Source of the DNA: Dysgonamonadaceae bacterium
Lineage (GTDB): Bacteria; Bacteroidota; Bacteroidia; Bacteroidales; Azobacteroidaceae
Reading direction: 5' to 3'
DNA length: 19,111 bases
Assembly (NCBI GenBank): GCA_031256775.1
Contig: JAIRPX010000154.1
Location: 1-19,111 of the forward strand
Shown here one piece after another: positions 1 to 19,111 of the stretch; position 1 is the first letter of the stretch, and the number at the start of each line of letters is the position of its first letter. The translations under genes and the position numbers were made by a program. A model generated the notes under the pieces. It was not told the DNA's origin. It was given only the letters and a program-made list of their open reading frames with translations, and made no database searches.

Positions 1-541
1 AAGCATAATCGGTTACGGCAATATTCAGTTTTTCCGTAACAATCAATTCTACGGGACGATATATTCCTCCGTAAACTCCGAATAATGTGTGATTTACCGG
101 AATAACGTCGGGACGCGAAGCATTGTCCGCTTTTACTAAAATTTCATTTTCCTGTCCGTATTTCAACAGTTTAGTCATTTCGATTACAAAAGCGGAATAC
201 CCTCCTCTGTGGTTTCCCGCCAGCGTTCCGTTTACATAAACTTCCGCTACCGCCGCCACGCCTTCAAACCGGAGAAATACGCGCTTGTCGGACAAGGATT
301 TATCGGGCGTATATGATTTCTTGTAATAAGCTTCGCCGGCATAAAAGATGTTTTTCTTTACCTGCATATCTTCTGCATTCCAAGTGTGTGGAATTTTAAC
401 AGGCTGCCAAGTTTCGTTCAGTGTCTTAGGCAGATTCTCGGCTTTTTTAAATAACCAGCCGTCGTTAAACGGCCGGTTATCGCGGCTAAAAGCCGAAGTT
501 GCTATAAATGTAACAAGTAATATCAAGAAAAATCTGTTCAT
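1..541 (-). CDS. Glycoside hydrolase family 2 (beta-galactosidase/beta-glucuronidase type), N-terminal ~180 aa only; the gene runs off the window start
   Basis: The minus-strand ORF starts at ATG 541..539, 6 nt downstream of the M60 gene stop, and stays open to position 1. It is absent from the ORF track because it is partial. The translation begins MNRFFLILLVTFIATSAFS (signal peptide), then ...NDGWLFKKAE...WQPVKIPHTWN...VFLRFEGVAAVAEVYVNGTLAGNHRGGYSAFVIEMTKLLKYGQENEILVKADNASRPDVIPV. This matches the GH2 N-terminal sugar-binding domain pattern (W.F..., PHTWN, L.F.GV...A.VYVNG...GGY..F..DIT..L..G.EN.L.V.V.N). Confidence 0.75.
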   Translation of the reverse strand, partial: MNRFFLILLVTFIATSAFSRDNRPFNDGWLFKKAENLPKTLNETWQPVKIPHTWNAEDMQVKKNIFYAGEAYYKKSYTPDKSLSDKRVFLRFEGVAAVAEVYVNGTLAGNHRGGYSAFVIEMTKLLKYGQENEILVKADNASRPDVIPVNHTLFGVYGGIYRPVELIVTEKLNIAVTDYA

Positions 542-547
542 TTCCAA

Positions 548-3500
548 TTAGTTTACAACTATTTTTGACATATATCTTTCCGTACCGCTCTTCACTTCTA
601 TGATGTATGTTCCTTTGAGGTCAATAGTTTGTTTGACAAAGCCAGCATTTATCTTCTGTTCCGATACTTTTGCCCCGGAAACAGTATAAATATTGACTAC
701 TCCATCCGAAAATTTACCGGTCGACTTTACCGTAAAAGGCTGTCCTGCTTTTCCCGGATTGGGATAAATGCTTATTCCCTGTTCGCCGTCCGGAAACTTC
801 AGGCCGGTTGTTGTTTTTGCAGCAATATTGATATCCAAATGGTTTGTTACCTTTACGGTCAGGCTATATTTCTCCGGTACTACAGCCGCATCACTTAAAA
901 TCGGGATTACTGTGTCGCCGTCGACAGTTACGGTCAATTCGTTCGCATCGGGTGCTAATGTGAAGTCAATCGTATAATCGCTGTCTTCGTCTTCCAAGTG
1001 AACGCCTGCCTGTGAGGTAATTACCTTGTCGTTTGTTGTCACATTCACTTTGAATTTCAATGGAGGAGGCACGGGCAACTGTTCTCCGGACGACTTGATG
1101 CCGGCATTAAACTCAGCTACCTGTATGGTATTTCCGCTTGACTTGTCCCAATCTTCAATATCCACGCGGATATAACGGTACGACACTTCCGGAAATTCAA
1201 TGACAATTTCATTGTCGTTCTTCGCATAATCGATTACATAATGTTCATAAACCGGCGTGAATACCGTGTTATCGCCCGATCCGTAAACGGATATCTGCCT
1301 TGCCCTGATCCATGCGGAGGTATTGCCTGCATTGCGATGCAAATAACTTACGTAATTGAACATTTGTTCGCCTTGCATGTCAATCGTGAACGAAGGTATG
1401 TAACCAGTCGGCCCGGTTACATTTCCTACTGTTTTCCCCGGCTTAATAAATGAGAATGCAGAGGTTGTATTCCCGTCAATGATGTTCACCGGATTATCGC
1501 CGCCTACGGTAGCATCCGGCACGCCTTCAATGGAAGTGGTAATTGTCCAGTTTGTTCTGTCAAGCGGATTAGCCGTTGATACTTCCGGACTTGAAGAAGT
1601 AATGCCGCGCAAGGCTAAGGGCATCCATGCAGGACGGGCTTGTCCCGTAACCAAAGCAAGCTCTTCGGCCGTGCGGTTGATGTCAGCCAGATCAAGAATC
1701 TCGCCTTTTGTCTTTGCATCAGCCATTTTTGCCCGCAGCTTTGCTTTCACTTCGGCATCCGTTACACGTATTCCCCAGATATTAAAGAACTCGGTCAAAT
1801 CGTAACCGGATACCTGCGAGGCTTTCCAAATCAGATAAGAGCGCCGTTCTTCAGCTCCGCCGCCGGTAACTTTTTCTTCACGCACTACACGGTGCAGGTT
1901 TTTGTAGAAATCGTCGCTGAAAATTAAGAATAATTGTTCCCAAACCATGAAACGCAACTCGTCGCGGTTGAAACCGGTAATGCTTTGCAGCAGTTCGGAA
2001 TCCATGTCATATATCCGCTTTGAAAACGGGAGCTTCAGGTAGGTGTTTTGCGCCCCTTCCCACCGTTCGGCGGAAGTACGGTTATAGCCTGCGCCCTGAA
2101 TATTCCGTTCTGTCACATACGAATAAATATTAACGGTCGATTCGGTTGCCAGGTTAATCATATACGCAGGTTGCTGGTGCTGGTGTCCCAGCTCGTGACC
2201 CAGCATCCATGAGTTGTTGCTTGCAGTTCCCAGCTTTGTCAGGTAACGGGCGCGGCTGCCGTGGGGATAACCGGTATAACCGGCCGAACTGGCATGGGGG
2301 TTTTCGCTGGTATTTTCCGTCAGAAGGAATCTCACTTCGCCGGTTTTCAGGCGGTGATGCAAGGGATTCGGGTCGCCGTTGTCCATACCGCTTATTTCGT
2401 CTTCCTTAGCGAGCAGGGTATGTATGGACTCCATCCATTCGTCCTTATTTTCGTCGATGGAGAATTGCAGGGCAGCCTCGCGCGTAGCCGCCGCCACAAT
2501 ATAATCGGACTGGTAGAGGACGTCGGGCGTTTGATAGTTGTTCATCATGCTTGCAAACTCAGCATGTGGAGTAACTCCGTATATATAGCGCGGCGCGCGC
2601 ACATGTTCGCTGCCGTCTGTAAAAGTAATTCTTGCCCGTCCTTTCGGATCGGCATTTCCGTCATTGACAAAACTCAGCCAGATGAGGCCGCCCAAATGAT
2701 TGGTAACTGTATTCACCCCGGCTGTCAGCGTGGTTGATGTGCCGGTATTCCGTCCGTCCACATTGAATCCCAGCGTTCCTACGGTAAGAACCGGCATCAC
2801 ATTCTGATCTGCCGCGGCAAGGATTTCGACGTTTACTTCCACTTTTTTCCCGGCTTCCACATAGAAGCCTGTGGGTTGCCTGTCGTATTTTTTATGTCCC
2901 TGACACAAGCGCATCCGTTCTTTTTCAGCGCTGTTAATCTGATTGATTTCGATTGCCGAAGGATAAGGCGTAGTAATATTAACTTGTTCCTTCGTTGCCG
3001 AGATGGAAAGATTCATGTCTGCGGTAACGTTTGCGATGCGTATCTTGTCGCCTTCTATTGTTGCGCCGCCGGTTACAACCGGATTTTCGTAATCGGTTTT
3101 CAATCTGAAGATAGCTGTAAACTCGCTGCCGTTGTCTATTCGGGCAAAATAGGGTGTAACATTTTCGATGCCTTCACCCGTACTTACGATGACGCTATGT
3201 TTAACCATTCCGGGAGGTAAATCGGTCTTTCCCAGTCCAAATTCGGCGATTTGCATGGTGCTGCCGCTTCCGGAGCCTGTTCCCGGATAATCAGGATGCC
3301 GGCTGCTGTAAATATCGCTCCACATTACAAGCCTAATTCTGACATACCGGCCGGTAGATTGCGGTACGTCTATTTTATATGTATTCGGATCGGTAACTTC
3401 GGGGGTACTTGTAGTATATCCGGCTATATTCGGAATCCATACGATATCGGTATTAATTTTAGTGAAGTTTGTACCATCGTTGCTGATTTCAATATCAATA

Positions 3501-3853
3501 CCATATACACGCAGATATTTGTAGCTATTACCACCGCGGTGACGCCATTTGATATAATCAAACGTTTGCGCCGATTGCATATCCACGGTAAATGAAGGTA
3601 TGAAATCAGAAGGTTGTTTGGGTACGGCGCCGTAATTCTTACCCGGTTTTACCAGCGAAAGGAATGTCGCGGCATTGTCGTCAAACATGTGTTCCGGCAA
3701 TCCTGTCGTGCCGTCGACTACATAGCCGTAGTTTGTTGCAGTTTGCGTAGTTACCGCCCAATTCGTACGGTCAATGTCTGTTTCGGTTGCTGTCTGCGCG
3801 GTCATTGCTATTGTTAATAACAACGACGAAAAAAATAAGGTTAATCGTTTCAT
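548..3853 (-). CDS. Secreted M60-like (enhancin-type) zinc metallopeptidase, predicted mucin-type glycoprotease, with two discoidin (F5/8 type C)-like modules and a T9SS C-terminal sorting domain
   Basis: The 1101-aa ORF starts with ATG and carries an SPI-type signal peptide (MKRLTLFFSSLLLTIAMTAQ) with no lipobox Cys. Residues ~27-209 form a discoidin-like module (RTNW...GLPEHMFDD...YIKWRHR...YLRVYGIDIEISNDGTNF...RYVRIRL...STMQIAEFGLGK) followed by a GTGSGSGS linker. The M60 catalytic core contains the gluzincin motif HELGH at residues 553-557 with a downstream Glu (HELGHQHQQPAYMINLATE). A second discoidin-like module spans residues ~765-916. The last ~75 aa (ISIYPNPGKAGQPFTVKSTGKFSDGVVNIYTVSGAKVSEQKINAGFVKQTIDLKGTYIIEVKSGTERYMSKIVVN) match the Por/T9SS CTD pattern. 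Confidence 0.8.
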   Translation of the reverse strand: MKRLTLFFSSLLLTIAMTAQTATETDIDRTNWAVTTQTATNYGYVVDGTTGLPEHMFDDNAATFLSLVKPGKNYGAVPKQPSDFIPSFTVDMQSAQTFDYIKWRHRGGNSYKYLRVYGIDIEISNDGTNFTKINTDIVWIPNIAGYTTSTPEVTDPNTYKIDVPQSTGRYVRIRLVMWSDIYSSRHPDYPGTGSGSGSTMQIAEFGLGKTDLPPGMVKHSVIVSTGEGIENVTPYFARIDNGSEFTAIFRLKTDYENPVVTGGATIEGDKIRIANVTADMNLSISATKEQVNITTPYPSAIEINQINSAEKERMRLCQGHKKYDRQPTGFYVEAGKKVEVNVEILAAADQNVMPVLTVGTLGFNVDGRNTGTSTTLTAGVNTVTNHLGGLIWLSFVNDGNADPKGRARITFTDGSEHVRAPRYIYGVTPHAEFASMMNNYQTPDVLYQSDYIVAAATREAALQFSIDENKDEWMESIHTLLAKEDEISGMDNGDPNPLHHRLKTGEVRFLLTENTSENPHASSAGYTGYPHGSRARYLTKLGTASNNSWMLGHELGHQHQQPAYMINLATESTVNIYSYVTERNIQGAGYNRTSAERWEGAQNTYLKLPFSKRIYDMDSELLQSITGFNRDELRFMVWEQLFLIFSDDFYKNLHRVVREEKVTGGGAEERRSYLIWKASQVSGYDLTEFFNIWGIRVTDAEVKAKLRAKMADAKTKGEILDLADINRTAEELALVTGQARPAWMPLALRGITSSSPEVSTANPLDRTNWTITTSIEGVPDATVGGDNPVNIIDGNTTSAFSFIKPGKTVGNVTGPTGYIPSFTIDMQGEQMFNYVSYLHRNAGNTSAWIRARQISVYGSGDNTVFTPVYEHYVIDYAKNDNEIVIEFPEVSYRYIRVDIEDWDKSSGNTIQVAEFNAGIKSSGEQLPVPPPLKFKVNVTTNDKVITSQAGVHLEDEDSDYTIDFTLAPDANELTVTVDGDTVIPILSDAAVVPEKYSLTVKVTNHLDINIAAKTTTGLKFPDGEQGISIYPNPGKAGQPFTVKSTGKFSDGVVNIYTVSGAKVSEQKINAGFVKQTIDLKGTYIIEVKSGTERYMSKIVVN
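551..778 (-). other. Coding segment for the T9SS (Por secretion) C-terminal sorting domain of the M60-like peptidase
   Basis: The C-terminal ~76 residues contain the YPNP motif, an IYTVSGAKV motif (cf. IYDLSGRKV-type), a GTYIIEV motif (cf. GVYFVKV-type) and a basic C-terminal tail. This is the characteristic beta-sandwich CTD of T9SS cargo. Confidence 0.65.
2183..2197 (-). other. HELGH zinc-binding motif codons of the M60-like catalytic domain
   Basis: The reverse complement of 2183..2197 is CAC GAG CTG GGA CAC, which encodes H-E-L-G-H. A Glu lies 14 residues downstream of the second His (LATE), the gluzincin third-ligand position. Confidence 0.7.
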
Positions 3854-3876
3854 AATTGTTTGTTTTTATAATTTGA

Positions 3877-3904
3877 GTAGAGACGCGGTATGCCACGTCT
3901 CTAC
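3877..3904 (-). promoter_or_regulatory. GC-rich stem-loop in the 75-bp gap between the discoidin lipoprotein gene and the M60 peptidase gene; no U-tract follows, so a possible intra-operon attenuator or RNA-stability/processing hairpin
   Basis: gtagagacg (3877-3885) pairs perfectly with cgtctctac (3896-3904) around the loop cggtatgcca. On the transcribed minus strand the hairpin is followed by tcaaattataaaaacaaacaatt and then the ATG, so no T-run follows it. Confidence 0.4.
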
Positions 3905-3928
3905 TGCATTCAAAATCCACATGATAAT

Positions 3929-5245
3929 CTATTCAATAACTATTTTTCCTAATCCGAATTCGGCTATTTGCATTGTATTGCCGCTCAAGGCGCCACTTCC
4001 GGGATAGTTGGGATGCTGATACTTGTCGGGAGCATAGTTCCTGCTCTGTACAACCAAATTCACCTTGACATAACGGTAGGACGATTTGGTTATCGGAATT
4101 ACATAGGGCGCATCTTCTACGGAAGTGACAGACCCGACATACGAAACTTTTTGCGGAATCCAAACGATATCGGCATTAGACCCGGCAGGCTCGGCAGGAG
4201 GTATTACGGTAAAATTAGTTCCGTCGTTGCTGCCTTCCACGATGACGCCATATACCCGCAGGTAATTGTAGGTATTAGATCCTACGCTTCCATTCGCGTT
4301 GCTGTAAGTTCCATTGCGGTGACTCCACTTGATGTATTCAAACTCCTGCGCTGTTTTCATATCAACGATAAACGAGGGAGGGGTGGATTCTGCCGGAGGA
4401 GCTACTCCGTTGATAGAGCCGCCCGGTTTCACCAGTGACAGGTAGGAACCGGCTTGTTCGTCAAACATGTGTTCGGGCAATCCTGTTACGGGAGCGGCCT
4501 GTGTACCGCCGTCCCACATATAGCCGTAATCGTTGTGGGTTTGCGTGGTTACCGTCCAGCCGGAGCGGTCTATGTCCACATTTCTTATTACCAGATCGAG
4601 CACAGTAACGGTAACGTCCCTTGAAAGGTTGCTGCCGTCGGCGGTTCTAATTGTAATCGTTGTGGAACCTACGTTTACGGGACTTACAATACCGGTTGCA
4701 GTAACAGTTGCAATCGATGCATCGTTGGAGGTATAAGTGACAGTTTTATCCCATGTATCCGCGGGCGTCAGACTTACACAGGCGCCAAGGTCGAATGTAT
4801 TTCCTCCGATTTTCAGTTCAAAGTTGCTGCCGGCAGCCGTTACGTTAATGGCTGTGGCTTTTACCATGTGGTCGATAATATTCACTATGAATCTTGTACT
4901 AACTCCCGATCCGTCGGTAGCGCCGACAATTAGCGTGTCGGTACCGAAAGTCTTCGGCTTGAGCAGTCCCGCTTCGGTTACTTCCATCAAGTCGGGACGC
5001 ATGTTGGAGAATGTTACCTTTGGGTTTTTTGCATTTTTCGGCAATATCTCGACATTCAGCTGTAATTCCGTGTTATCTTTCAGAGAAATCTGCATGGAGG
5101 GCTTTCCCGCGCTCACATAGACCGCTTCTTTAATGCCGATTGCGGTAACTTTGCCATCGTTTTCCGGTTCAAATCCCTGAGGTTCGCAGCCGGGCATCAT
5201 CACAGTAATAATTACCAGAAGTGATAAATATATAATCTTTTTCAT
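3929..5245 (-). CDS. Cell-surface lipoprotein with two Big_2 (bacterial Ig-like) domains and a C-terminal discoidin-like (F5/8 type C / DUF5000-like) module; SusE/F-position surface glycan-binding protein candidate
   Basis: The 438-aa ORF starts with ATG and has a lipoprotein-type signal (MKKIIYLSLLVIITVMMPGC) followed by an acidic stretch (CEPQGFEPENDGK). Two Ig-like repeats follow (VTAIGIKEAVYVS... and ATAINVTAAGS...). The C-terminal module RSGWTVTTQTHNDYGYMWDGG...GLPEHMFDEQAGSYLSLVKPGG...YIKWSHRNG...YLRVYGVIVEGSNDGTNFTVI...RYVKVNLVVQS...NTMQIAEFGLGK is about 50-55% identical to the N-terminal module of the adjacent peptidase. The gene lies immediately downstream of susD. Confidence 0.75.
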   Translation of the reverse strand: MKKIIYLSLLVIITVMMPGCEPQGFEPENDGKVTAIGIKEAVYVSAGKPSMQISLKDNTELQLNVEILPKNAKNPKVTFSNMRPDLMEVTEAGLLKPKTFGTDTLIVGATDGSGVSTRFIVNIIDHMVKATAINVTAAGSNFELKIGGNTFDLGACVSLTPADTWDKTVTYTSNDASIATVTATGIVSPVNVGSTTITIRTADGSNLSRDVTVTVLDLVIRNVDIDRSGWTVTTQTHNDYGYMWDGGTQAAPVTGLPEHMFDEQAGSYLSLVKPGGSINGVAPPAESTPPSFIVDMKTAQEFEYIKWSHRNGTYSNANGSVGSNTYNYLRVYGVIVEGSNDGTNFTVIPPAEPAGSNADIVWIPQKVSYVGSVTSVEDAPYVIPITKSSYRYVKVNLVVQSRNYAPDKYQHPNYPGSGALSGNTMQIAEFGLGKIVIE

Positions 5246-5270
5246 ATTTATTTATTTTGACGGTTGTTAA

Positions 5271-7271
5271 TTAACGTTTTATATCCTGCCATCCGGGGCT
5301 TTGCGTCAGGTTTTTATTCAATTCGAGTTCCTGAAGGGGAATCGGATTGTAATAATATCTGTCGTCCCATTTCACGACGCCATTGCTTACATTCGGGCTT
5401 TTCGGATAGCCGACGATGAAGCCTTCGCTATCTACGAATACATCTGAATTGAGCGTAGCTTTCGGCGCATTTTTCGCCTTGCTTGTATTTGTGCCGTCGT
5501 ACAGTTTTTGTTTTTCTGCCGTAAATTTCATGCCTCTTATGGGCTTTTCAATAAACCTTCCGGCTTTCCAGCGTACCAAATCTTCGCGGCGAAGGCCTTC
5601 CATTGCCATTTCTATGCGGCGTTCGCGGCGTATTTCGCGAAGAATGGGACTCGGAACGTATCCCGCATATTGCCGGTAAAGATTATCCAAGTGAGTATCG
5701 GCAGGAATGTTCTGCAAAGTCAGCTTGCTGTTGGGATATTTGGAAAAATCAAATCCTGCGCGTTGACGCAAGACATTGACGGTCTTGTCCAAATCCTCAT
5801 TTGTAATGGTTCCCAGTTCCGCTTTGGCTTCGGCATACATCAACAAGGCTTCCCCATAACGGAAAATCAAGGCTGTCTGCGAACCACTGGTAGTAGATCC
5901 GTTGTCTATCTGCTCGTTTGTCCAGTGCTTGATAAACATATAGCCGGTAACGCAAGGGCCGGCTGTCGGCGTTTGATTGGCAGTCGGACAGTTGTATGTA
6001 ATTTCCGGATACTTAAGCCCTTGCAGCGCCTGATTGATTGCGCCCCCGTTATCGTCCCTGTTAAAGACAGTGACATATTCGCCCGGCTTCACTACGGTTT
6101 GCCGCAGGCGCGGGTCGCGGTTGTCAAGCTCTCGCCAGTCGTCGCCGTCATAGCCTTTGAAAAGGGGGCTTGAGGCAGCCGGCAGGCCATCAATACACAA
6201 GTATTCGTCTATCAAGTCTTTGGTGGCTCCCTTACAATAGCGTCCGCTTGCATTTCCGCGGTTCATATTGAAGTATCGCGAGGTTCCGTGCCCCAGCTTG
6301 GAGCCGTCATATACCCGTGCGAGGATGGCTTCCTTGTGGTCACCACCCGTCATGCCGTTCAGCTTGAAGAGATGCCAGTACGGGTCGTTTCCTACTTCGG
6401 CGCTCGGTACATTATATAACTGATACTTGTTTGTCGCCATAATCGCTTCGCAGGCTGTTGCACATTCTTCAAGGAACCTGTTGGCCGTGTTTTGCAAGCC
6501 CAATTCGGTATGATACTTTCGGAAAGTTCCTTCAAACAGGCAGAAACGCGCTTTCAGGAAGTTTGCCATGTCGCGGTTGATGCGTCCTGTTGGTCCGCCT
6601 GTGTTGTTCATATACTGCACGGCGTAGTCGAGGCATTTCATCACGCTATCCACAAGTTGCGTTCTTGGCGTACGCGGGGAATACAATTCGGGAGAATTGG
6701 TATTCAAATCTTTTTCCAGCCAAGGCGCTTCTCCGAAGGCGACTATCTTCCAGTAATAATCCCAAGCCTTAAAGAAATAAGCCTCGGCGGCGTATTTGTT
6801 CAGGATGTCGGGGCTGCTCACCGAGCCTTCCGCTTCGCGGTAATGGCTCAGGAAATAGTTGATTGTACGCAGGTTACCCCACCGCCAGCCGGTATTGTTG
6901 CCATCGTCGAGCGAAGTTACCGCGCTGGCCGGCACTTGCCATGTACCTTGCATGCGGTTAACAATATCGCCCGAAGTATTGGAAAATCCAATGGCGTTAT
7001 CTGTGAAAATGTCGCCGTATATGATATAACTTCCGCGCGTAATGTAGAACGGTGGAGCATAACTGTAAGCATTGCCTGTCTGATGCCCCATGCAATATAC
7101 ATTGTATAATTGATTAAGGTACAAAGGCAAGTCGCCTTCATTTTTTAGAAAAACACCTTCGGCAAGCGTATTATAAGGATCTTGCTGCATAAAATCGTCG
7201 TTACACGAGATCAGGGTAAATCCTGCGCATATACAAACGATTGTAATATATTTTTTTATTATTTTTTTCAT
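5271..7271 (-). CDS. susD: SusD/RagB-family nutrient-binding outer membrane lipoprotein
   Basis: The 666-aa ORF starts with ATG 20 bp downstream of the SusC-like gene. Its lipoprotein signal has the lipobox and an acidic export signal (GFTLISCNDDFMQQDP). It is aromatic-rich and sits in the canonical SusC-SusD pair position. Confidence 0.85.
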   Translation of the reverse strand: MKKIIKKYITIVCICAGFTLISCNDDFMQQDPYNTLAEGVFLKNEGDLPLYLNQLYNVYCMGHQTGNAYSYAPPFYITRGSYIIYGDIFTDNAIGFSNTSGDIVNRMQGTWQVPASAVTSLDDGNNTGWRWGNLRTINYFLSHYREAEGSVSSPDILNKYAAEAYFFKAWDYYWKIVAFGEAPWLEKDLNTNSPELYSPRTPRTQLVDSVMKCLDYAVQYMNNTGGPTGRINRDMANFLKARFCLFEGTFRKYHTELGLQNTANRFLEECATACEAIMATNKYQLYNVPSAEVGNDPYWHLFKLNGMTGGDHKEAILARVYDGSKLGHGTSRYFNMNRGNASGRYCKGATKDLIDEYLCIDGLPAASSPLFKGYDGDDWRELDNRDPRLRQTVVKPGEYVTVFNRDDNGGAINQALQGLKYPEITYNCPTANQTPTAGPCVTGYMFIKHWTNEQIDNGSTTSGSQTALIFRYGEALLMYAEAKAELGTITNEDLDKTVNVLRQRAGFDFSKYPNSKLTLQNIPADTHLDNLYRQYAGYVPSPILREIRRERRIEMAMEGLRREDLVRWKAGRFIEKPIRGMKFTAEKQKLYDGTNTSKAKNAPKATLNSDVFVDSEGFIVGYPKSPNVSNGVVKWDDRYYYNPIPLQELELNKNLTQSPGWQDIKR

Positions 7272-7291
7272 ATTCTTCCGTTATTTAAAAT

Positions 7292-10200
7292 TTAAAATGT
7301 AATCTGAGCACCAACGGCAATTGTTCTCTTTTGTGGATAGGCGTCCGAAATTTGATCGGGGTCAAAAATAGACGGGATTTCCGTAATTTCAAACAAGTTG
7401 TAACCCGACAGGGTAAAGCGCAGTTTTTCAACATGCAGTCTTTTTATCAGAGAAGCAGGCACAGTATAACCCAATACAGCCTGTTTCATACGCAGATAAG
7501 CTCCGTTGACCAGCCATCCTGTCTGTACGGCAGGTCCTCCGGCGGTAGAGCTATAACGGGGAAACTTCGCGTCGATCTGGTCAGGCTTCCACGAACGTTC
7601 GTACATCCACCGGCTGCCGGCGTTGTTTGTTCCGCCGCCCCAATAAGTGGTGCTGCCGATCCACAGGTCGCGCTTGGCGACGCCCTGGAACAACATGCTG
7701 AGGTCGAAACCTTTCCACGAAGCGCCCAGCGTAAGGCCAAACTTGTAACGCGGCGTATTGTTTCCTATGATGCGCCGGTCACCCGGATCGTCGGCCGTAT
7801 TGGAGCCGGAGTTGATAATTCCGTCGCCGTTCAGGTCTTTCCGCCACGCATCGCCGGGCCAGACATTGCCACCCTGATAAGGACCGTAGAATTTATAGCT
7901 GTTGCCATCGACTATAAGATCTTCCATTTGCAGAATGCCTCCGGTTTCGTATCCCCAGATTTCGCCAACGTTCATACCTTCATAGTAAAGATAATCTCCC
8001 AGCGTTTTTATGGGGTTGGAAGGATAACTCAGCACTTTGGCCATAGCATCCGACAAAACGAGGCCTGCATTGTACTGCAATCCGTTGGCGAGCTTGTCTT
8101 TCCATTCCAGGCTGAGTTCCCATCCTTTTGAGCGAAGCGCCCCGCTATTTTCACGCGGAGCCGAAACGCCCATCAAATTGGGATATGCAACGCTTCCTTC
8201 CACCAGGATATCGGTGGTTTTGCGTTCAAATACGTCTAAAGAAAAGTTCAGGCGGTTTTGAAAGAACCCAGCGTCCAGCCCAATGTTGGTGGTTGCCGCT
8301 TTTTGCCAGGTCAAGGTAGGCGACACAAGGGACGGCGCGTTTACCGTATTGCTCCAGCTTCCGTCAATCCAGTAATTGGAAGCCGATGAGCTCATTGTCG
8401 CCTGATAGGGATAATAAGAATCGGGCTGGCTACCCAATTTACCATACGATCCCCTTATTTTAAGATTTGAAAGCCAATTTTTCGAAAAATCCATAAAACC
8501 TTCTTCCGAGATTCTCCATCCGACAGAGAAAGAGGGGAAGAAAAAGTATCGTCCGTTAGGTGTAAAACGGCTGCTACCGTCGTAGCGACCATTGACTTCA
8601 AATAAATATTTCCCTGCGAAATTATAATTGATCCGGCCGAAAGCTGCTCTTCCGGTGCGTTTTTGCGCCGAAGTTTCTATTGTATTTAAAGTGGGATCTT
8701 CTGTTGCGCTTGGATTTAAAATATTGGGTGAAAGTAAATTACGTAGATTAAGCGCCGACTGATCGTATTCTACGTATTCCTGATTATACCCGACAATAGC
8801 CGAAAGCGTATGTTTTTCCTTGAATGTTTTGTTGAAATCGGCATACACATTGATCTGGTAATTGTCGGTAACGTCTTTTTCAAATCTTCCCCTGTTTTCC
8901 TTGTATTCCTGTTGCTCGCTTACGGGCGTCCATGTATAGGTGAGATAGTAATGCGAAGGATCGACGCGCCTCAATGTACGTCCTTGCGGCGAATAGGAAA
9001 GATCTGCCTTGAGCTTCAGGATTTTCGGGATAACGATAAATTCCGGCGACACGGCCAAAACCGTAGTCCACCGCTTGGTTACCGTCCGGTTGCCGTAATT
9101 CAGCCATGCAAGATAATTATCCGTCCACTGCTCGCCGCTCGGATCGGTCTGCAAAGTCTTTATGGGCATATTGATATTCTTGTCGGCGTCCTGTTTCAAT
9201 ATCGACCAGATAGTACCCTTATAACTCGGCACGTAAGGTTCTTCGTAGCTGTAACGGTTATAATTGACTTTTGTTTCCACATTAAACCAATCGGTTACTT
9301 TTGCATTAAAGCGGGTAGCGATGTTGTAGCGGTTGTATTGGTCTTCGCCGATTTTATACATGCCGTCTTGCGTCATGTAACCCAGCGAAAGATGATAGGC
9401 GATTTTATCCGATCCTCCCGACAGGCTCACGTTATGCTTTTGTGTAGGCGCGTAGTCGCGAACCACTTCTTTGTAAGGATTCATATTTCCAACCCATACG
9501 ATTGAGTTTCCGTTCATTATATACCGGTTTTCCGGATTGGTTGGATCTGCCATGTATTTTTCGATCGCTTCCATCTTTCTCTTGTCCAAATCGCTTGGCT
9601 GATTGTTGACAGAGGTCCACTGGGTATTTTGCATCACGAAGCGTTGAATTTCATAAGCGTTCATAATGTCGGGGAGGGCGGAGGGCTTGTCATACGAAAG
9701 ATCATAATTGTAGCTGATTTTTCCCTTTTGGTTGAATTTACCCGCTTTGGTTGTAATCAACACGACTCCCCATGTTGCTTTTGTTCCGTAAATGGCCGAA
9801 GCTGAAGCATCCTTAATTACACTCATGCTTTCAACATCGTTCGGATTCATCTGGTTCAGCAATGTGGAGGTCATTTCCACTCCATCCACTAAAATTAACG
9901 GTTCGCCGTTTTTAAGTTCCCATCTGGAGTCTGTCGTATTGTAGTCGATAGAGGTAGTTCCACGAATATTAAAACTGGGTACCGTGTTGGGCTTCCCGTC
10001 GCTCATGGAAATATTCAGGTTAGGAACAACGCCTTGTAAGGCTTGGCCGATATTGGCCACGGGGCGGTTTTCAAATGTTTCGGATCCAACAGAGGAAACG
10101 GCTCCGGTCAGGTTTACTTTTTTTTGTGTCTGGAAGCCAACGACCACCACATCGTCCAATAATTTTGAATCTTCCGCAAGTTTTACGTTAATTGTTGTTT

Positions 10201-10495
10201 GCGTTCCCGCTTTGTACTCTTGCGTAGCATATCCGATATACGAAAATACCAGAACAGTGTTTGGACCGTCGGCAGTGATACTGTATTTACCGTCAATATC
10301 GCTTACCGTTCCTTTTGTTGTGTTTTTAAGAGTAACACTGACTCCTACGAGAGGTTCGCTGCTCATGTCTGTTACTGTTCCTGTAATTGTATTCTGCGCC
10401 CTGCAAAGGCAACAGACACAAAAACCGAAAAAGAGTAACAGAAAGATTTTGCATTTGAATCTTTTTCTAAAATTTTCGATAGTACAATGTTTCAT
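7292..10495 (-). CDS. susC: SusC/RagA-family TonB-dependent outer membrane transporter
   Basis: The ORF-track start at 10501 is a TTG. The first in-frame ATG is at 10495 (MKHCTIENFRKRFKCKIFLLLFFGFCVCCLCRAQ signal), so the protein is ~1067 aa. A carboxypeptidase-regulatory-like N-domain (NTITGTVTDMSSEPLVGVSVTLKNTTKGTVSDIDGKYSI) is followed by a TonB-box region (DDVVVVGFQTQ), a plug and a long beta-barrel ending in the aromatic C-terminus AQITF. There is no STN/N-terminal signalling extension. Confidence 0.9.
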   Translation of the reverse strand: MKHCTIENFRKRFKCKIFLLLFFGFCVCCLCRAQNTITGTVTDMSSEPLVGVSVTLKNTTKGTVSDIDGKYSITADGPNTVLVFSYIGYATQEYKAGTQTTINVKLAEDSKLLDDVVVVGFQTQKKVNLTGAVSSVGSETFENRPVANIGQALQGVVPNLNISMSDGKPNTVPSFNIRGTTSIDYNTTDSRWELKNGEPLILVDGVEMTSTLLNQMNPNDVESMSVIKDASASAIYGTKATWGVVLITTKAGKFNQKGKISYNYDLSYDKPSALPDIMNAYEIQRFVMQNTQWTSVNNQPSDLDKRKMEAIEKYMADPTNPENRYIMNGNSIVWVGNMNPYKEVVRDYAPTQKHNVSLSGGSDKIAYHLSLGYMTQDGMYKIGEDQYNRYNIATRFNAKVTDWFNVETKVNYNRYSYEEPYVPSYKGTIWSILKQDADKNINMPIKTLQTDPSGEQWTDNYLAWLNYGNRTVTKRWTTVLAVSPEFIVIPKILKLKADLSYSPQGRTLRRVDPSHYYLTYTWTPVSEQQEYKENRGRFEKDVTDNYQINVYADFNKTFKEKHTLSAIVGYNQEYVEYDQSALNLRNLLSPNILNPSATEDPTLNTIETSAQKRTGRAAFGRINYNFAGKYLFEVNGRYDGSSRFTPNGRYFFFPSFSVGWRISEEGFMDFSKNWLSNLKIRGSYGKLGSQPDSYYPYQATMSSSASNYWIDGSWSNTVNAPSLVSPTLTWQKAATTNIGLDAGFFQNRLNFSLDVFERKTTDILVEGSVAYPNLMGVSAPRENSGALRSKGWELSLEWKDKLANGLQYNAGLVLSDAMAKVLSYPSNPIKTLGDYLYYEGMNVGEIWGYETGGILQMEDLIVDGNSYKFYGPYQGGNVWPGDAWRKDLNGDGIINSGSNTADDPGDRRIIGNNTPRYKFGLTLGASWKGFDLSMLFQGVAKRDLWIGSTTYWGGGTNNAGSRWMYERSWKPDQIDAKFPRYSSTAGGPAVQTGWLVNGAYLRMKQAVLGYTVPASLIKRLHVEKLRFTLSGYNLFEITEIPSIFDPDQISDAYPQKRTIAVGAQITF

Positions 10496-10506
10496 AAACA
10501 ATAGAT

Positions 10507-11649
10507 TTAAAATTTATAATATGATTGATAAATTTCACTTCCTGCCAGCAAGAATGCGCCCACGCCGTAAGCAGCAGTCATATTTGCCGTCACTTTTTTA
10601 GGATCTGCACCGACAGGCTGCACCCATCCGAGTTTCCCGTTTTTATCTATGGCAGAAACCAGAGCTGTCCACGATTTTTTCACGACAGGTGTATATTTTT
10701 TTTTATCCAGCAAGTCCTTGTTGACACCGTAAGCCAATGCGTAGGTAATAAGCGCCGTAGCGCTGGTTTCAGGTGCCGGGTAGCTCGCAGGATCCAGCAG
10801 GCTTGCATGCCAAAAACCATCTTTATCCTGCAATGCCGCCAATTGCGAAACAAACTCTTTGAACAGATTTTCGTAAAAAGGCCGGTACTCTGAGTTTTCA
10901 GGAAGCAGTTTCAAAATATTTACTAATCCTGCGGCCACCCAGCCGTTGCCTCTTCCCCAAAAGACTTTTTCCCCATTCGCTTCTTTTTTGTTAAAATAGC
11001 TGCTATCTCTAAAGAACAGTTTCTTTTTTCGGTCATATAAAAAATTATATGTTCTTTTAAATTCTCTGTCCATAAATTGAAGATATTCGTCGTTTCCTTC
11101 GATTTTTGTCAGATGTGCATAAACAGGGGGAGCCATGAACAAAGCGTCGCACCATGTCCATGATTGTTTGTTGGATATGCTCATTGCGGAATCGGGGGGA
11201 TTACTGATGATCCAGTCTGCTCTTTCCTTTGTGGAACAGAGCATTTTATTCTCTTTGTAGAGATTGAACATATTCAGGTAAAATTGTCCGATACAGAGTT
11301 CGTCGGCATGATAGAGTCCGTATATAGGGTATTTAAGAAAATTGGCGGGAATATTCCAGTTACTTGTTAAACCGATGTTTTCCAGCCACTGAAAACAGGA
11401 TGAATCGTCGGCTATTTTTGCCCATTCAAACATTCCCAAGTATAAAACGGCATTTGTCCATGAATCTATTCCATAATCATGCAGATTATCGGTTGTAGAG
11501 TACTTGAAGTTGTCGATTTGCCAGTCGGCGACTTTTTTCATTGAAGATTTTATATCCGGTAACTTTAATGCCGACCTGCTCCAACAGGGAAAAACAGATA
11601 TTATTCCCCAGAAAAGCAAAAAAATGACAATGTTCTTGTGTCTTTTCAT
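10507..11649 (-). CDS. Glyco_hydro_88-superfamily (GH88/GH105) unsaturated glucuronyl / rhamnogalacturonyl hydrolase-like enzyme with a signal peptide; first gene of the locus
   Basis: The 380-aa ORF starts with ATG and has an N-terminal signal (MKRHKNIVIFLLFWGIISVFPCWS). It shows (alpha/alpha)6-type motifs shared by the UGL/YteR families (DSWTNAVLYLGMFEW, YHADELCIGQFYL, WTWCDALFMAPPVYAHL, GRGNGWVAAGL). Its stop codon lies 11 nt before the SusC ATG. Confidence 0.65.
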   Translation of the reverse strand: MKRHKNIVIFLLFWGIISVFPCWSRSALKLPDIKSSMKKVADWQIDNFKYSTTDNLHDYGIDSWTNAVLYLGMFEWAKIADDSSCFQWLENIGLTSNWNIPANFLKYPIYGLYHADELCIGQFYLNMFNLYKENKMLCSTKERADWIISNPPDSAMSISNKQSWTWCDALFMAPPVYAHLTKIEGNDEYLQFMDREFKRTYNFLYDRKKKLFFRDSSYFNKKEANGEKVFWGRGNGWVAAGLVNILKLLPENSEYRPFYENLFKEFVSQLAALQDKDGFWHASLLDPASYPAPETSATALITYALAYGVNKDLLDKKKYTPVVKKSWTALVSAIDKNGKLGWVQPVGADPKKVTANMTAAYGVGAFLLAGSEIYQSYYKF

Positions 11650-11687
11650 ATAGTATATTTTGTTTTTTTTAAGTTTTTAAGGTGCAA

Positions 11688-11695
11688 CAAAAATA
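11688..11695 (-). promoter_or_regulatory. Candidate Bacteroides-type -7 promoter element (TAnnTTTG) for the GH88/105-susC-susD-lipoprotein-M60-GH2 operon
   Basis: The reverse complement of caaaaata (11688-11695) is TATTTTTG, matching TAnnTTTG. It lies ~39 nt upstream of the ATG at 11649. No well-spaced -33 TTTG was found. Confidence 0.35.
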
Positions 11696-11700
11696 TGTAT

Positions 11701-11767
11701 TTTGGTTTTCAAGTTAATATTTTTTGCATTGCTATTATTGCCTTATTTTTTGCTGTAATTGCCAAAT
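11701..11767. repeat. Copy 1 of a ~67-bp near-perfect direct repeat in the locus upstream region
   Basis: Copy 1 reads tttggttttcaagttaatattttttgcattgctattattgccttattttttgctgtaattgccaaat. It differs from the copy at 11821-11887 at only ~2-3 positions. Each copy contains two internal ATTTTTTGC(N)ATTGC sub-motifs. Confidence 0.85.
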
Positions 11768-11820
11768 AGCTAATATTCAGTATGTTATATAGTGTATGAA
11801 TTGCAAAAAAAAGTATAAGG

Positions 11821-11887
11821 TTCGGTTTTCAAGTTAATATTTTTTGCATTGCTATTATTGCTTTATTTTTTGCTGTAATTGCCAAAT
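11821..11887. repeat. Copy 2 of the ~67-bp direct repeat, 120-bp period, separated from copy 1 by a 53-bp spacer
   Basis: Copy 2 reads ttcggttttcaagttaatattttttgcattgctattattgctttattttttgctgtaattgccaaat. The flanks diverge immediately outside the repeat. Confidence 0.85.
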
Positions 11888-12197
11888 GGTTGTGGTATAG
11901 ATAATTGTGATATGATATTATGAAGAAGAAAAGCTGTCTCAACTCAGTTATTAAACAAATCTTTGTCACCAAAATAGTTACATCAAGAAATCGTATGTTT
12001 TGAAAAACCGGACAAATCGTGTATATATCTTATGGTATAGCTTCCTTAAATGGCGACAACATCCAAACTTTTCACTATTCTGTTTATTGAAAAGAAGGTG
12101 TTCAAAAACCATTTGTTTTTCAAATCAACCGTAACCTTTAATGTTTACTGCAATAAGCTTGTACTTTACTACTTGGTCTCGGCTTTCGACTTTCATC

Positions 12198-12218
12198 AAA
12201 AAGCGTTTTCTAAACGCC
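12198..12218 (-). terminator. Candidate rho-independent terminator for the NfeD-flotillin operon
   Basis: On the minus strand the sequence reads GGCGTTTagaAAACGC followed by TTTTTG. This is a 6-7 bp stem with a 3-nt loop and a U5 tract. It lies ~185 nt downstream of the flotillin stop at 12402. Confidence 0.3.
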
Positions 12219-12401
12219 ATCTTTCGAATGTAAAGGGGTGATGAAAGGCAATCCAATGGCAAAACAAAACGATTGTTTATTAATAAAAGTGCTATTTTTT
12301 AGGGAAGAATTTGGATATGAATTTAAGAAAGTTTTCACAAAGGAGCAAAAGTGCAACGTATTCATCGTCCATCTTTACTCCTTTGTGGAATAAGGCAAAA
12401 C

Positions 12402-13976: not shown

Positions 13977-13995
13977 AATTTATAGTATAAAGTAA

Positions 13996-14502
13996 TTAAA
14001 TAATAAAATCAATCGGATAAACCAATTGGCGTGTACCGGACACTTTTATTTTTTGTCCCTTTTCGAAATGAATTTCTTCAGGACACTCTAAAGTAATAGT
14101 TACCGGCCTGCCTTCCAGAGTGACAAATACTTCTCCTACTTTTCGCTTATCGTCCCAAAAATATACTTCAGCTTCCATCTCTTTTATTTCATGAGTATAT
14201 TTCATATTTTGTTGCAATTTGTCATAGACCCATTTATACAAGAAGTATAATACAACGACAAAAATGATACCCACAAAGACTCCCATTGTGGTCGAAAAAA
14301 AAGTAACTTCGTGCATTAGAGTTAATTCAAGCGAAAAACCAATAGTAAAATGCAGCAGACCTTTGAAAGAAAGAATATCGCCCCACAGAAATCCACTATC
14401 CATATCCGAATCTATATCGAAATTGCCGAAAAACAGAGATCCTATAGCGTTGATAATAAACAAAATCCCTGATACAATCAAGACTATCTCATACCATGTC
14501 AT
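13996..14502 (-). CDS. NfeD-like short membrane protein (YuaF/YqiJ-type partner of flotillin)
   Basis: The 168-aa ORF starts with ATG and has N-terminal TM helices. Its C-terminus is OB-fold-like (GEVFVTLEGRPVTITLECPEEIHFEKGQKIKVSGTRQLV). It lies 19 bp upstream of the flotillin gene, the conserved nfeD-floT arrangement. Confidence 0.7.
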   Translation of the reverse strand: MTWYEIVLIVSGILFIINAIGSLFFGNFDIDSDMDSGFLWGDILSFKGLLHFTIGFSLELTLMHEVTFFSTTMGVFVGIIFVVVLYFLYKWVYDKLQQNMKYTHEIKEMEAEVYFWDDKRKVGEVFVTLEGRPVTITLECPEEIHFEKGQKIKVSGTRQLVYPIDFII

Positions 14503-16789: not shown

Positions 16790-16793
16790 AACT

Positions 16794-18566: not shown

Positions 18567-19111
18567 GAGCAATTTTACAAAAATATTAAGTTCAATTCTT
18601 AAAGTTCAAAATAAATAAACAAGTTATTCTTAAAAACGAACAAATGTACATGAAAAATTTCATATTTTGCATAAACAAATGGATTTCTATTAAAGCTGAT
18701 TTCAAAAAAGAAACATCATTTTGCATTTTCCGGTTCGATTTTGTATTTTCTTGAAATCTGGCGAATCGGATTTGCCCCATTTCACTTCTCCGTTTGCTCG
18801 ACGTATCATTTACTTGAGCATTTATATAACAGCAAAAAAATACTGTCATTGAAATTGAAAAATACTTTCTCATATTTGTGAAATTTAAAAGTTGATTGTT
18901 TTAGTACAGTGATAATTGGCGTGTTAGCCTGTATTCTTTTTCGTGGCTGCAAAATGTTGCTACTAACAGAAATGGTATCAATTTAACATCTAATTCTTAT
19001 TTCTTTATCAGTGCATACGCCGCAGAGTTGATAAATAAAATTGTTGGTGGGATAATGTCCGACAGATCAGTATGTTTTGGTGTGTCGATTGCAAGTATTG
19101 AATTAAAAGAA

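What the first reader, a model, noticed from the sequence alone, without database searches (positions are those of the whole stretch)
1..11649. Six-gene glycoprotein-targeting PUL with unusual gene order and no regulator in the window
The co-directional genes have gaps of 6, 75, 25, 20 and 11 nt. The order is GH88/105, SusC, SusD, Big_2/discoidin lipoprotein, M60 peptidase, GH2. The content (M60 protease, GH2 galactosidase-type enzyme, discoidin/CBM32-like binders) points to mucin-type O-glycoprotein or another galactose-rich glycoconjugate as substrate. This resembles BT4240-50-type loci, with three differences. A GH88/105 enzyme leads the operon and is coupled to susC. SusC lacks the N-terminal signalling extension used by ECF-sigma/anti-sigma-regulated PULs. 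No HTCS, ECF-sigma/anti-sigma, SusR or AraC gene lies within 750 bp upstream, where the region is instead non-coding with repeats. Regulation therefore appears non-canonical.
Basis: partly seen in the sequence, partly recalled or inferred. Interest (0 to 1): 0.6.

Follow-up and report, generated by a model that had tools for sequence, protein, structure and literature searches.

The report
Acidic-glycoprotein utilization locus, regulator unseen
This is a real but fairly ordinary Bacteroidales nutrient-harvesting gene cluster that most likely digests glucuronic-acid-bearing glycoproteins or proteoglycans, and its missing regulator reflects a short contig, not a new control mechanism.

Summary
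Six co-directional minus-strand genes (GH105-type hydrolase, SusC, SusD, Big_2/discoidin lipoprotein, M60 peptidase, GH2 fragment) are separated by 11, 20, 25, 75 and 6 nt. Upstream lies 752 nt of non-coding DNA with an 82-nt direct repeat. The window is an entire 19,111-nt contig of a Dysgonamonadaceae MAG, so the GH2 gene is cut after 180 residues and nothing lies left of position 1.

The first gene resembles GH105 unsaturated beta-glucuronyl hydrolases. The GH2 is closest to beta-glucuronidases, and its 81%-identical full-length orthologue carries the N-x-K motif. Related loci add fucosidases (GH29, GH95) and chondroitinase-AC-like PL8 lyases. The likely substrate is therefore a glucuronate- and possibly fucose-bearing glycoprotein or proteoglycan, not a galactose-rich mucin.

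Non-canonical regulation is not supported. At least four related loci carry a hybrid two-component-type regulator next to M60 or GH105. The window's promoter holds a conserved operator: two GCAAnnAnAGCAA direct repeats 21 nt apart, 87-90% identical in the closest relative against about 55% at neutral sites. That layout fits an AraC-type activator encoded elsewhere. Here the operator-promoter module is tandemly duplicated. This is a new member of a known kind, of modest interest.

The parts
11806..11887 (-). Distal copy of the duplicated operator-promoter module. It contains two GCAAnnAnAGCAA half-sites (11849-11861 and 11870-11882). Its -7 box is degenerate.
   Evidence: Direct repeat family D1. 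Motif hits. Alignment A1.
11686..11767 (-). Proximal copy of the operator-promoter module. It contains half-sites 11729-11741 and 11750-11762, and a consensus Bacteroidetes -7 box TATTTTTG at 11688-11695. The GH105 ATG lies about 40 nt downstream.
   Evidence: The 39-nt operator block is 34-35/39 identical to L001, against 49-59% identity at four-fold degenerate sites.
10507..11649 (-). GH105-type unsaturated beta-glucuronyl hydrolase (Pfam Glyco_hydro_88). It has an N-terminal signal sequence and is probably periplasmic.
   Evidence: PF07470, 4.6e-91. Best PDB match is 4CE7, unsaturated 3S-rhamnoglycuronyl hydrolase, 5e-68, with the WxWCDALFMAPP motif shared.
7292..10495 (-). SusC-type TonB-dependent transporter with no STN signalling domain.
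   Evidence: TIGR04056, 878 bits against a cut-off of 368, plus CarbopepD_reg and Plug domains. The ATG start agrees with the gene call on L016.
5271..7271 (-). SusD-family surface lipoprotein (signal ...LISC followed by NDD).
   Evidence: PF07980, 1.5e-46. It is 87% identical to the L001 orthologue.
3929..5245 (-). Surface glycan-binding lipoprotein candidate with Big_2 repeats and a C-terminal discoidin domain.
   Evidence: PF02368. The C-terminal 212 aa are 50% identical to the N-terminal discoidin domain of the neighbouring M60 protein. Orthologues hit F5_F8_type_C.
3876..3905 (-). A 13-bp perfect RNA hairpin in the 75-nt gap between the binding-protein gene and M60. No U-tract follows it. 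It may be an attenuator or a transcript-stabilising element.
   Evidence: MFE z-score -4.1, with 0 of 200 shuffles folding as well. L001 has a hairpin of different sequence in the same gap.
548..3853 (-). M60-like zinc metallopeptidase. Domain order: discoidin, spacer, M60-like_N, M60 catalytic domain (HELGH at 553-557 plus E571), discoidin, Ig-like region, T9SS C-terminal sorting domain.
   Evidence: PF13402, PF17291, PF00754, PF18962 and TIGR04183. H553, E554, H557 and E571 are invariant in 8 relatives.
1..541 (-). The first 180 codons (frame 2-541) of a GH2 enzyme of the beta-glucuronidase-like clade, truncated by the contig end.
   Evidence: PF02837 and the NF050095 LacZ4 model, 7e-47. It is 81% identical to the L001 GH2, which carries the N-x-K motif. 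Protein P0001 shows that the contig is 19,111 nt long.
12202..12218 (-). Terminator-like hairpin plus T-run downstream of the flotillin gene. It separates the housekeeping operon from the PUL promoter.

Best explanation
The locus is a Sus-like polysaccharide utilization locus of a Dysgonamonadaceae bacterium. It harvests an acidic, glucuronic-acid-bearing and probably fucosylated glycoprotein or proteoglycan.

Proposed mechanism:
1. The M60 zinc peptidase is exported by the type IX secretion system and held at the surface. Its two discoidin domains bind the glycan and the catalytic domain cuts the glycosylated polypeptide.
2. The Big_2/discoidin lipoprotein has a binding domain that is a paralogue of the peptidase's N-terminal one. 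Together with SusD it captures the glycopeptides, and SusC imports them.
3. In the periplasm the GH2 beta-glucuronidase removes saturated beta-GlcA. The GH105 enzyme removes 4,5-unsaturated GlcA left by a lyase or dehydratase encoded elsewhere. In relatives a GH29 fucosidase removes fucose.
4. Transcription starts at a Bacteroidetes-type promoter (-7 box TATTTTTG) about 40 nt upstream of the GH105 gene. It probably depends on an AraC-type DNA-binding activator, most plausibly a hybrid two-component system encoded on another contig. That activator would bind the conserved pair of GCAAnnAnAGCAA direct repeats spaced 21 nt apart. In this genome the operator-promoter module is tandemly duplicated.

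Shown: gene content, order, motifs, synteny and conservation of the operator. Inferred: substrate identity, protein localisation, regulator identity and co-transcription.
For: Gene set and domains.

GH105 assignment: the nearest solved relatives are 4CE7 (5e-68), 5NOA and 4Q88, not classical GH88 enzymes.

GH2 as a beta-glucuronidase:
- the window fragment is 81% identical to the L001 GH2
- that protein scores best against the beta-glucuronidase LacZ4 model (636 bits) and against PDB chains that include named beta-glucuronidases (8DHE, 5Z1A, 6MVG)
- it has the HNE, SEYG and N-x-K motifs

M60: the active site is invariant and a T9SS sorting domain is present. The discoidin domain is shared between the binding protein and the peptidase.

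Context in 19 related loci:
- PL8 chondroitinase-AC-like lyases next to M60 in L004, L005, L006, L013 and L018
- GH105 or GH88 in L001, L006, L018 and L019
- GH29 or GH95 fucosidases in L001, L002, L009, L015, L018 and L019
- HTCS-type regulators in L003, L006, L009 and L019

Published precedent: a uronate-processing PUL that also holds M60-like peptidases is B. caccae PUL25, which targets chondroitin (PMC12269599).

Operator: 4 motif hits against 0.11 expected, all in the promoter. The block is 34-35/39 identical to L001, while four-fold sites are 49-59% identical.

Co-transcription: the gaps are 6-25 nt apart from one 75-nt gap, and no intergenic terminator was called.
Against: - No lyase, dehydratase, hexosaminidase or galactosidase is in the window, so the pathway is incomplete as seen.
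- The GH2 catalytic and specificity residues lie outside the window and were read only in the 81%-identical orthologue.
- That orthologue falls below the NCBIfam equivalog cut-off for LacZ4 (636 against 950 bits).
- PL8 linkage occurs in loci whose SusC/SusD are not orthologous to the window's (26% identity). Several of those loci come from MAGs whose names do not point to termite guts.
- The operator motif differs from the motif shared by the HTCS-adjacent promoters of L006 and L019, so the regulator need not be the orthologous HTCS.
- The 13-bp hairpin before M60 could partly uncouple M60 and GH2 from susC/susD.
- No expression or biochemical data exist.
Confidence: 0.6

Rival explanations
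1. The locus forages on host insect glycans. It targets insect gut mucins or peritrophic-matrix glycoproteins whose mucin-type O-glycans are capped with beta-glucuronic acid instead of sialic acid. The beta-glucuronidase would act as the decapping enzyme and the enhancin-like M60 as the mucinase. This is a specific sub-case of the best explanation and keeps the first reader's 'mucin' idea.
For: Most close relatives come from MAGs named Dysgonamonadaceae, Candidatus Symbiothrix and Prevotellaceae. Their isolate codes are typical of termite-gut surveys, which I recognise from memory. Symbiothrix, Dysgonomonadaceae and Bacteroidaceae are discussed as flagellate-associated ectosymbiont lineages of lower-termite guts in PMC11481507. 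Insect O-glycans carry GlcA-beta1,3-Gal-beta1,3-GalNAc and related GlcA-containing structures, including GlcA on O-fucose (PMC6994554). The Pfam family is named for baculoviral enhancins, which degrade insect intestinal mucin (background knowledge).
Against: The source habitat of this MAG was not established with the tools. No GalNAc- or Gal-releasing enzyme (GH101, GH109, GH35, GH20) is seen in the window or in L001. A GH105 has no role on saturated GlcA caps unless a lyase or dehydratase is also present. Relatives with PL8 point to polymeric glycosaminoglycan-like chains.
Confidence: 0.25
2. The substrate is plant arabinogalactan-protein (gum-arabic-like). Its side chains end in Rha-alpha1,4-GlcA-beta1,6-Gal. 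GH105 would remove the unsaturated GlcA left by a rhamnose-glucuronate lyase, GH2 would remove saturated GlcA, GH29 would remove fucose, and M60 would cut the hydroxyproline-rich core.
For: The second-best solved relative of the GH105 is 5NOA (2.2e-52). From memory this is the Bacteroides thetaiotaomicron AGP-locus GH105, which I could not confirm in the paper library. Termite-gut relatives live on plant material.
Against: No galactanase, arabinofuranosidase, PL27/PL42 lyase or GH154 appears in the window or in any of the 19 related loci. The lyases that do co-occur are PL8, chondroitinase-AC-like. M60 peptidases are so far linked to mucin-type or animal glycoproteins.
Confidence: 0.1
3. Regulation is truly non-canonical. 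The locus would have no dedicated sensor-regulator and would be controlled by a global factor, an RNA element or promoter duplication alone.
For: There is no regulator within the 19-kb contig, nor within the 18.8-kb syntenic stretch of L001. The operator motif differs from that of HTCS-adjacent relatives. The promoter module is duplicated. A conserved-position hairpin lies inside the operon.
Against: Absence on a short contig is weak evidence. Orthologous core loci (L009, with SusC 58% identical) and GH105 orthologues (L019 at 64%, L006 at 54%) sit next to HTCS-type regulators. Paired direct repeats with 21-nt periodicity placed upstream of the -33 region are what a trans-acting AraC-type activator would use. 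No Rfam element and no sRNA-like match lies in the upstream region.
Confidence: 0.1

Closest known systems
Bacteroides caccae PUL25, a chondroitin-targeting PUL with M60-like peptidases (PMC12269599)
   Same: A SusC/SusD locus that combines M60-like putative O-glycopeptidases with enzymes that remove uronic acid from the non-reducing end, including an unsaturated uronyl hydrolase. The implied substrate is a protein-linked acidic glycan.
   Different: BcPUL25 uses PL35, GH88, a GH154-type dehydratase and GH109. This window has GH105 and a GH2 beta-glucuronidase-like enzyme, with no lyase, dehydratase or hexosaminidase on the contig. Here M60 carries a T9SS sorting domain. The host is a Dysgonamonadaceae MAG, not a human-gut Bacteroides.
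Bacteroides thetaiotaomicron BT4240-BT4250 mucin O-glycan PUL with the M60-like peptidase BT4244
   Same: SusC/SusD plus an M60-like peptidase with a CBM32/discoidin domain and a GH2 enzyme in one co-directional locus.
   Different: The M60 domain is only distantly related to BT4244 (5KD5, E = 3e-4). The GH2 is glucuronidase-like rather than galactosidase-like. SusC has no STN domain, so ECF-sigma/anti-sigma control is unlikely. Relatives use HTCS-type regulators.
Ulvan and arabinogalactan-protein GH105 unsaturated beta-glucuronyl hydrolases (PDB 4CE7 and 5NOA)
   Same: These are the closest solved relatives of the first gene (5e-68 and 2e-52). They share the WxWCDALFMAPP active-site segment.
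   Different: Those enzymes work in lyase-containing algal or plant polysaccharide loci without peptidases. Roughly 40-45% identity does not fix the aglycone specificity.
HTCS-regulated PULs of Bacteroidota (hybrid two-component sensor with AraC-type output)
   Same: SusC has no signalling extension. Related loci L003, L006, L009 and L019 have such a regulator adjacent. The window's operator has AraC-like direct-repeat geometry.
   Different: No HTCS gene is on this contig or on the syntenic part of L001. The operator sequence differs from that upstream of GH105 in L006 and L019.

Membership tests
Sus-like polysaccharide utilization locus (PUL) | Adjacent susC-like and susD-like genes on one strand | tested here: met
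   SusC scores 878 bits on TIGR04056 (cut-off 368). SusD matches PF07980 at 1.5e-46. The gap between them is 20 nt.
Sus-like polysaccharide utilization locus (PUL) | Co-directional, closely spaced glycan-degrading enzymes and a surface glycan-binding protein | tested here: met
   GH105, GH2, M60 and the Big_2/discoidin lipoprotein are separated by gaps of 6-75 nt. Synteny is conserved in L001.
Sus-like polysaccharide utilization locus (PUL) | Substrate-dependent induction and co-transcription | not testable with these tools
   This needs RNA-seq or qPCR.
HTCS-regulated PUL | Hybrid two-component system gene adjacent to the locus | tested here: not met
   There is none in the 19,111-nt contig or in L001. 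One is present in relatives L003, L006, L009 and L019. The contig ends inside the locus, so absence from the genome is not shown.
ECF-sigma/anti-sigma-regulated PUL (BT4240-50 type) | SusC with an N-terminal STN signalling domain, plus adjacent sigma and anti-sigma genes | tested here: not met
   There is no STN hit, and CarboxypepD_reg starts at residue 38. No sigma or anti-sigma gene is in the window.
M60-like / enhancin gluzincin peptidase | HEXXH motif plus a downstream Glu, and a Pfam PF13402 match above the gathering score | tested here: met
   PF13402 scores 119.7 bits (cut-off 25.8) and PF17291 scores 31.9 bits. H553, E554, H557 and E571 are invariant in 8 relatives.
M60-like / enhancin gluzincin peptidase | Glycan-dependent cleavage of O-glycoproteins | not testable with these tools
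   This needs an enzyme assay. Sequence similarity to the characterised O-glycopeptidases BT4244 and ZmpB is weak (E = 3e-4 to 5e-4).
GH105 unsaturated beta-glucuronyl hydrolase | Glyco_hydro_88 fold, clustering with characterised GH105 enzymes rather than with GH88, and a conserved catalytic Asp segment | tested here: met
   PF07470 matches at 4.6e-91. All ten PDB hits are GH105, YteR-type or uncharacterised, with 4CE7 best. WTWCDALFMAPP aligns to WWWCDALFMAPP.
GH2 beta-glucuronidase (GUS) | N-x-K carboxylate-binding motif and the two catalytic Glu residues | tested here: inconclusive
   The window holds only residues 1-180, which do not reach the motifs.
NCBIfam NF050095 beta-glucuronidase LacZ4 (equivalog) | Score at or above the curated cut-off of 950 bits | tested here: not met
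   The L001 orthologue scores 635.7 bits. This is the best family by far (next is GalA at 297 bits) but it is below the cut-off.
Type IX secretion system cargo | C-terminal sorting domain | tested here: met
   TIGR04183 scores 33.4 bits (cut-off 23) and PF18962 matches at residues 1029-1100. The presence of T9SS genes in the genome was not testable.
Glycosaminoglycan (chondroitin/hyaluronan) PUL | Polysaccharide lyase (PL8, PL35 and similar) plus an unsaturated uronyl hydrolase in the locus | tested here: not met
   There is no lyase in the window or in L001. PL8 lyases (best model chondroitinase-AC, 515-575 bits, below the 1000 cut-off) sit next to the M60 orthologue in L004, L005, L006, L013 and L018.

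The most novel reading that the evidence does not exclude
This would be an insect-gut counterpart of the human-gut mucin PULs. A termite-gut Dysgonamonadaceae would forage on host or protist glycoproteins and proteoglycans whose glycans are capped with beta-glucuronic acid rather than sialic acid. A T9SS-displayed enhancin-like M60 peptidase would act together with beta-glucuronidase and GH105 decapping enzymes. The operon would be switched on by a trans-encoded AraC-type sensor through a tandemly duplicated operator-promoter module that replaced the ancestral adjacent HTCS.
Probability: 0.25. Interest if true: 0.55.

Novelty: new member of a known kind. Interest (0 to 1): 0.3.

Why it matters
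If the refined reading is right, the locus adds a second, independent case in which M60-like peptidases are wired to uronic-acid-removing enzymes. The first case is B. caccae PUL25. That would support the idea that these peptidases act on acidic proteoglycan-like substrates as well as on sialylated or neutral mucins.

It would also point to host or protist glycoprotein foraging by insect-gut Bacteroidales. The termite-gut survey I read (PMC11481507) mentions their PULs only for cellulose, xylans and mannans.

The conserved 39-nt direct-repeat operator is a concrete, testable handle for finding the regulator. As a regulatory oddity, however, the finding does not stand, because the missing regulator is best explained by contig fragmentation and gene rearrangement.

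Tried and rejected
- Finding what lies left of position 1. Exact-protein look-ups found only a 9.3-kb Logan contig (L016) that ends inside M60. An exact 30-mer scan of metagenome contigs found nothing. A protein search with the GH2 fragment showed that the window is itself a whole 19,111-nt MAG contig. The question cannot be answered from this record.
- Looking for a hidden regulator or RNA in the 752-nt upstream region. It contains only short, low-complexity ORFs of up to 71 aa. There is no Rfam match at gathering threshold or at E<=1.
- Testing whether the window's operator equals the motif upstream of HTCS-linked relatives. It does not. L006 and L019 share GATAAAATAAnTGrTrAwTAGAGTAAAT 20 nt before the -7 box, L002 and L009 share AAATACAGTAAA, and AGAGTAAAT is absent from the window.
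- A sigma-70 promoter and intrinsic-terminator scan. Counts were not above shuffled expectation and no terminator fell in the intergenic gaps, so it was uninformative for Bacteroidota promoters.
- A TAnnTTTG scan. It gave 2 hits against 2.8 expected. Only the hit at 11695 is meaningfully placed.
- Literature look-ups for LacZ4, 5NOA and 3FN9 returned nothing. The identities of those references rest on database names or on memory.
- Classical GH88 and 'beta-galactosidase' labels for the first and last genes were rejected on the basis.

Full report
**Observation**

In transcription order they are:
- a Glyco_hydro_88-fold hydrolase (10507-11649)
- SusC (7292-10495)
- SusD (5271-7271)
- a Big_2/discoidin lipoprotein (3929-5245)
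- an M60 peptidase (548-3853)
- the first 180 codons of a GH2 enzyme (2-541)

The gaps in that order are 11, 20, 25, 75 and 6 nt.

Pfam and NCBIfam confirm every domain call. SusC has no STN signalling domain, because its CarboxypepD_reg domain starts right after the signal peptide.

The 752 nt upstream (11650-12401) hold no credible ORF and no Rfam family. They contain an 82-nt direct repeat with 120-nt spacing.

The genes further right are housekeeping: SPFH/flotillin, LpxB, SurE and a C26-M19 peptidase fusion. A terminator-like hairpin at 12202-12218 separates them from the locus.

The window is a complete 19,111-nt contig of an NCBI MAG labelled Dysgonamonadaceae bacterium. GH2 is therefore truncated by the assembly, and nothing exists left of position 1 in this record.

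**What the enzymes are**

*First gene.* Its closest solved relatives are GH105 enzymes. They are 4CE7 (unsaturated 3S-rhamnoglycuronyl hydrolase, 5e-68), 5NOA and 4Q88, followed by YteR-type proteins. The active-site segment WTWCDALFMAPP is shared with 4CE7. I read it as a GH105 unsaturated beta-glucuronyl hydrolase.

*GH2 fragment.* It is 81% identical to the full-length GH2 in the syntenic locus L001.
- That protein scores 636 bits on the NCBIfam beta-glucuronidase LacZ4 model. The best galactosidase model scores 297 bits.
- After one uncharacterised near-identical chain (3FN9), its best PDB matches include chains named beta-glucuronidase.
- It carries the HNE acid/base, the SEYG nucleophile and an RNMKG segment aligned to the N-x-K motif of E. 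coli GUS.
- It is below the LacZ4 equivalog cut-off, so 'beta-glucuronidase-like' is the honest label.

*M60 protein.* It has an invariant HELGH...E site, two discoidin domains and a T9SS sorting domain. Its N-terminal discoidin domain is 50% identical to the C-terminal domain of the neighbouring lipoprotein. The peptidase and the presumed surface glycan-binding protein therefore probably recognise the same ligand. Similarity to the characterised mucinase BT4244 is weak (E = 3e-4).

**Related loci**

Nineteen related loci were recovered and mapped by tblastn and Pfam.
- **L001** (77% M60 identity) has the same order as the window. It continues with the full GH2 and a GH29 fucosidase, and has no regulator in 18.8 kb.
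- **L002, L009 and L012** share orthologous SusC/SusD/binding-protein/M60 genes (57-58% SusC identity) but lack GH105 and GH2. L002 and L009 carry GH29. In L009, M60 is followed by a Reg_prop/Y_Y_Y/AraC regulator.
- **L003** has an HTCS right after M60.
- **L019** reads binding protein, HTCS, GH105 (64%), GH29, M60.
- **L006** reads M60, T9SS protein, PL8, HTCS, GH105 (54%).
- **L004, L005, L013 and L018** place a PL8 lyase beside M60. The two PL8 lyases scanned against NCBIfam (L006 and L013) score best on the chondroitinase-AC model. L018 adds a GH95-GH88 fusion with a T9SS domain.

The recurring partners of this M60 family are therefore uronate-processing enzymes, fucosidases and HTCS-type regulators. 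Galactosidases, sialidases and ECF-sigma pairs do not recur.

A published locus has the same logic. B. caccae PUL25 targets chondroitin and 'somewhat cryptically' encodes M60-like peptidases (PMC12269599).

**Regulatory region**

Each copy of the 82-nt repeat contains two GCAAnnAnAGCAA elements 21 nt apart. There are four hits in the window against 0.11 expected, all in the promoter region.

L001 carries the same block once, upstream of its GH105 gene. The 39-nt block is 34-35/39 identical between the two genomes. Four-fold degenerate sites in the adjacent genes are 49-59% identical, and flanking intergenic columns are 35-55% identical. The block is therefore under selection.

Downstream of the proximal copy lies a perfect Bacteroidetes -7 box (TATTTTTG, 11688-11695). 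L001 has TACTTTTG at the same place. The distal copy has a degenerate box.

Paired direct repeats at two-helical-turn spacing, ending upstream of the -33 region, are the layout used by AraC-type DNA-binding domains. This is general knowledge, not a test made here. The AraC type is also the output-domain type of HTCS regulators.

The motif differs from the one shared by the HTCS-adjacent promoters of L006 and L019. The regulator may therefore not be the orthologous HTCS.

The independent Logan contig L016 starts exactly 30 nt inside the shared repeat segment. That is what a k=31 graph branch would give, and it suggests that the duplication is real.

**Operon structure**

Short gaps and the absence of intergenic terminators support co-transcription. 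One feature qualifies this. The 75-nt gap before M60 holds a 13-bp perfect hairpin without a U-tract (z = -4.1). L001 has a different-sequence hairpin at the same position. It could attenuate or stabilise the transcript and so set different levels for the transport genes and the enzymes.

**Verdict**

The locus is a true PUL for a protein-linked acidic glycan. The most likely substrate is glucuronic-acid-bearing and probably fucosylated: a proteoglycan or a GlcA-capped O-glycoprotein.

Given the termite-gut names of most relatives, and the fact that insect O-glycans are capped with beta-GlcA (PMC6994554), host glycoprotein foraging is an attractive sub-hypothesis. It is unproven. Arabinogalactan-protein is a weaker alternative.

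The regulator is simply not on this short contig, relatives are conventionally regulated, and a conserved activator-type operator is present.

This is a new member of a known kind, with modest interest (0.3).

Noticed in passing
window 11686-11887 (-): The whole operator-promoter module is tandemly duplicated: two 82-nt copies, 120 nt apart, 90% identical. The closest relative L001 has a single copy. The distal copy has lost the consensus -7 box. The Logan contig L016 breaks exactly at the shared 30-mer, as expected if both continuations exist in the reads.
   Followed up: partly
window 3876-3905 (-); L001 about 10712-10758: A strong RNA hairpin without a U-tract sits in the gap between the binding-protein gene and M60. 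Its position is conserved in L001 but its sequence is not. It may be an intra-operon attenuator or stabiliser.
   Followed up: partly
window 548-3853 and 3929-5245 (-): The M60 proteins of the window and L001 (about 1100 aa) carry an extra N-terminal discoidin domain. It is a 50%-identical paralogue of the C-terminal domain of the adjacent lipoprotein. The M60 orthologues in L002, L006, L009, L013, L018 and L019 (727-827 aa) lack it, which suggests domain capture from the neighbouring gene.
   Followed up: partly
L009 12909-15404 (+): This HTCS-like regulator has the periplasmic Reg_prop propeller, a Y_Y_Y domain and an AraC HTH, but no histidine-kinase or receiver domains (831 aa). It looks like a one-component version of a hybrid two-component sensor.
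   Followed up: no
L018 17826-21764 (+): A single 1312-aa protein fuses a GH95 fucosidase-like domain, a GH88-fold domain and a T9SS sorting domain. It lies next to a PL8 lyase and the M60 orthologue.
   Followed up: no
L006 8-2107, L013 68-2335, L018 39-2120, L017 5-2119, L008 12910-15021: A conserved protein of about 700 aa with no Pfam match recurs next to a SusD-family gene: at the head of the PL8-linked M60 loci L006, L013 and L018, at the head of L017, and downstream of M60 in L008.
   Followed up: no
window 16794-18572 (-): A 592-aa fusion of a peptidase C26 / class-I glutamine amidotransferase domain with a membrane dipeptidase M19 domain.
   Followed up: no
window 12402-14502 (-): An SPFH/flotillin gene with a long coiled-coil tail is preceded by a 168-aa membrane protein with no Pfam hit. 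This may be an NfeD-like partner pair. It lies directly upstream of the PUL promoter.
   Followed up: no
window 14844-16115 and 16013-16831 (-): The mechanical LpxB ORF overlaps SurE by about 100 nt. The LpxB Pfam match starts at residue 37 and an internal Met (MKYFLIAGE) at about position 16016 would remove the overlap. The annotated start is therefore probably too far upstream.
   Followed up: no
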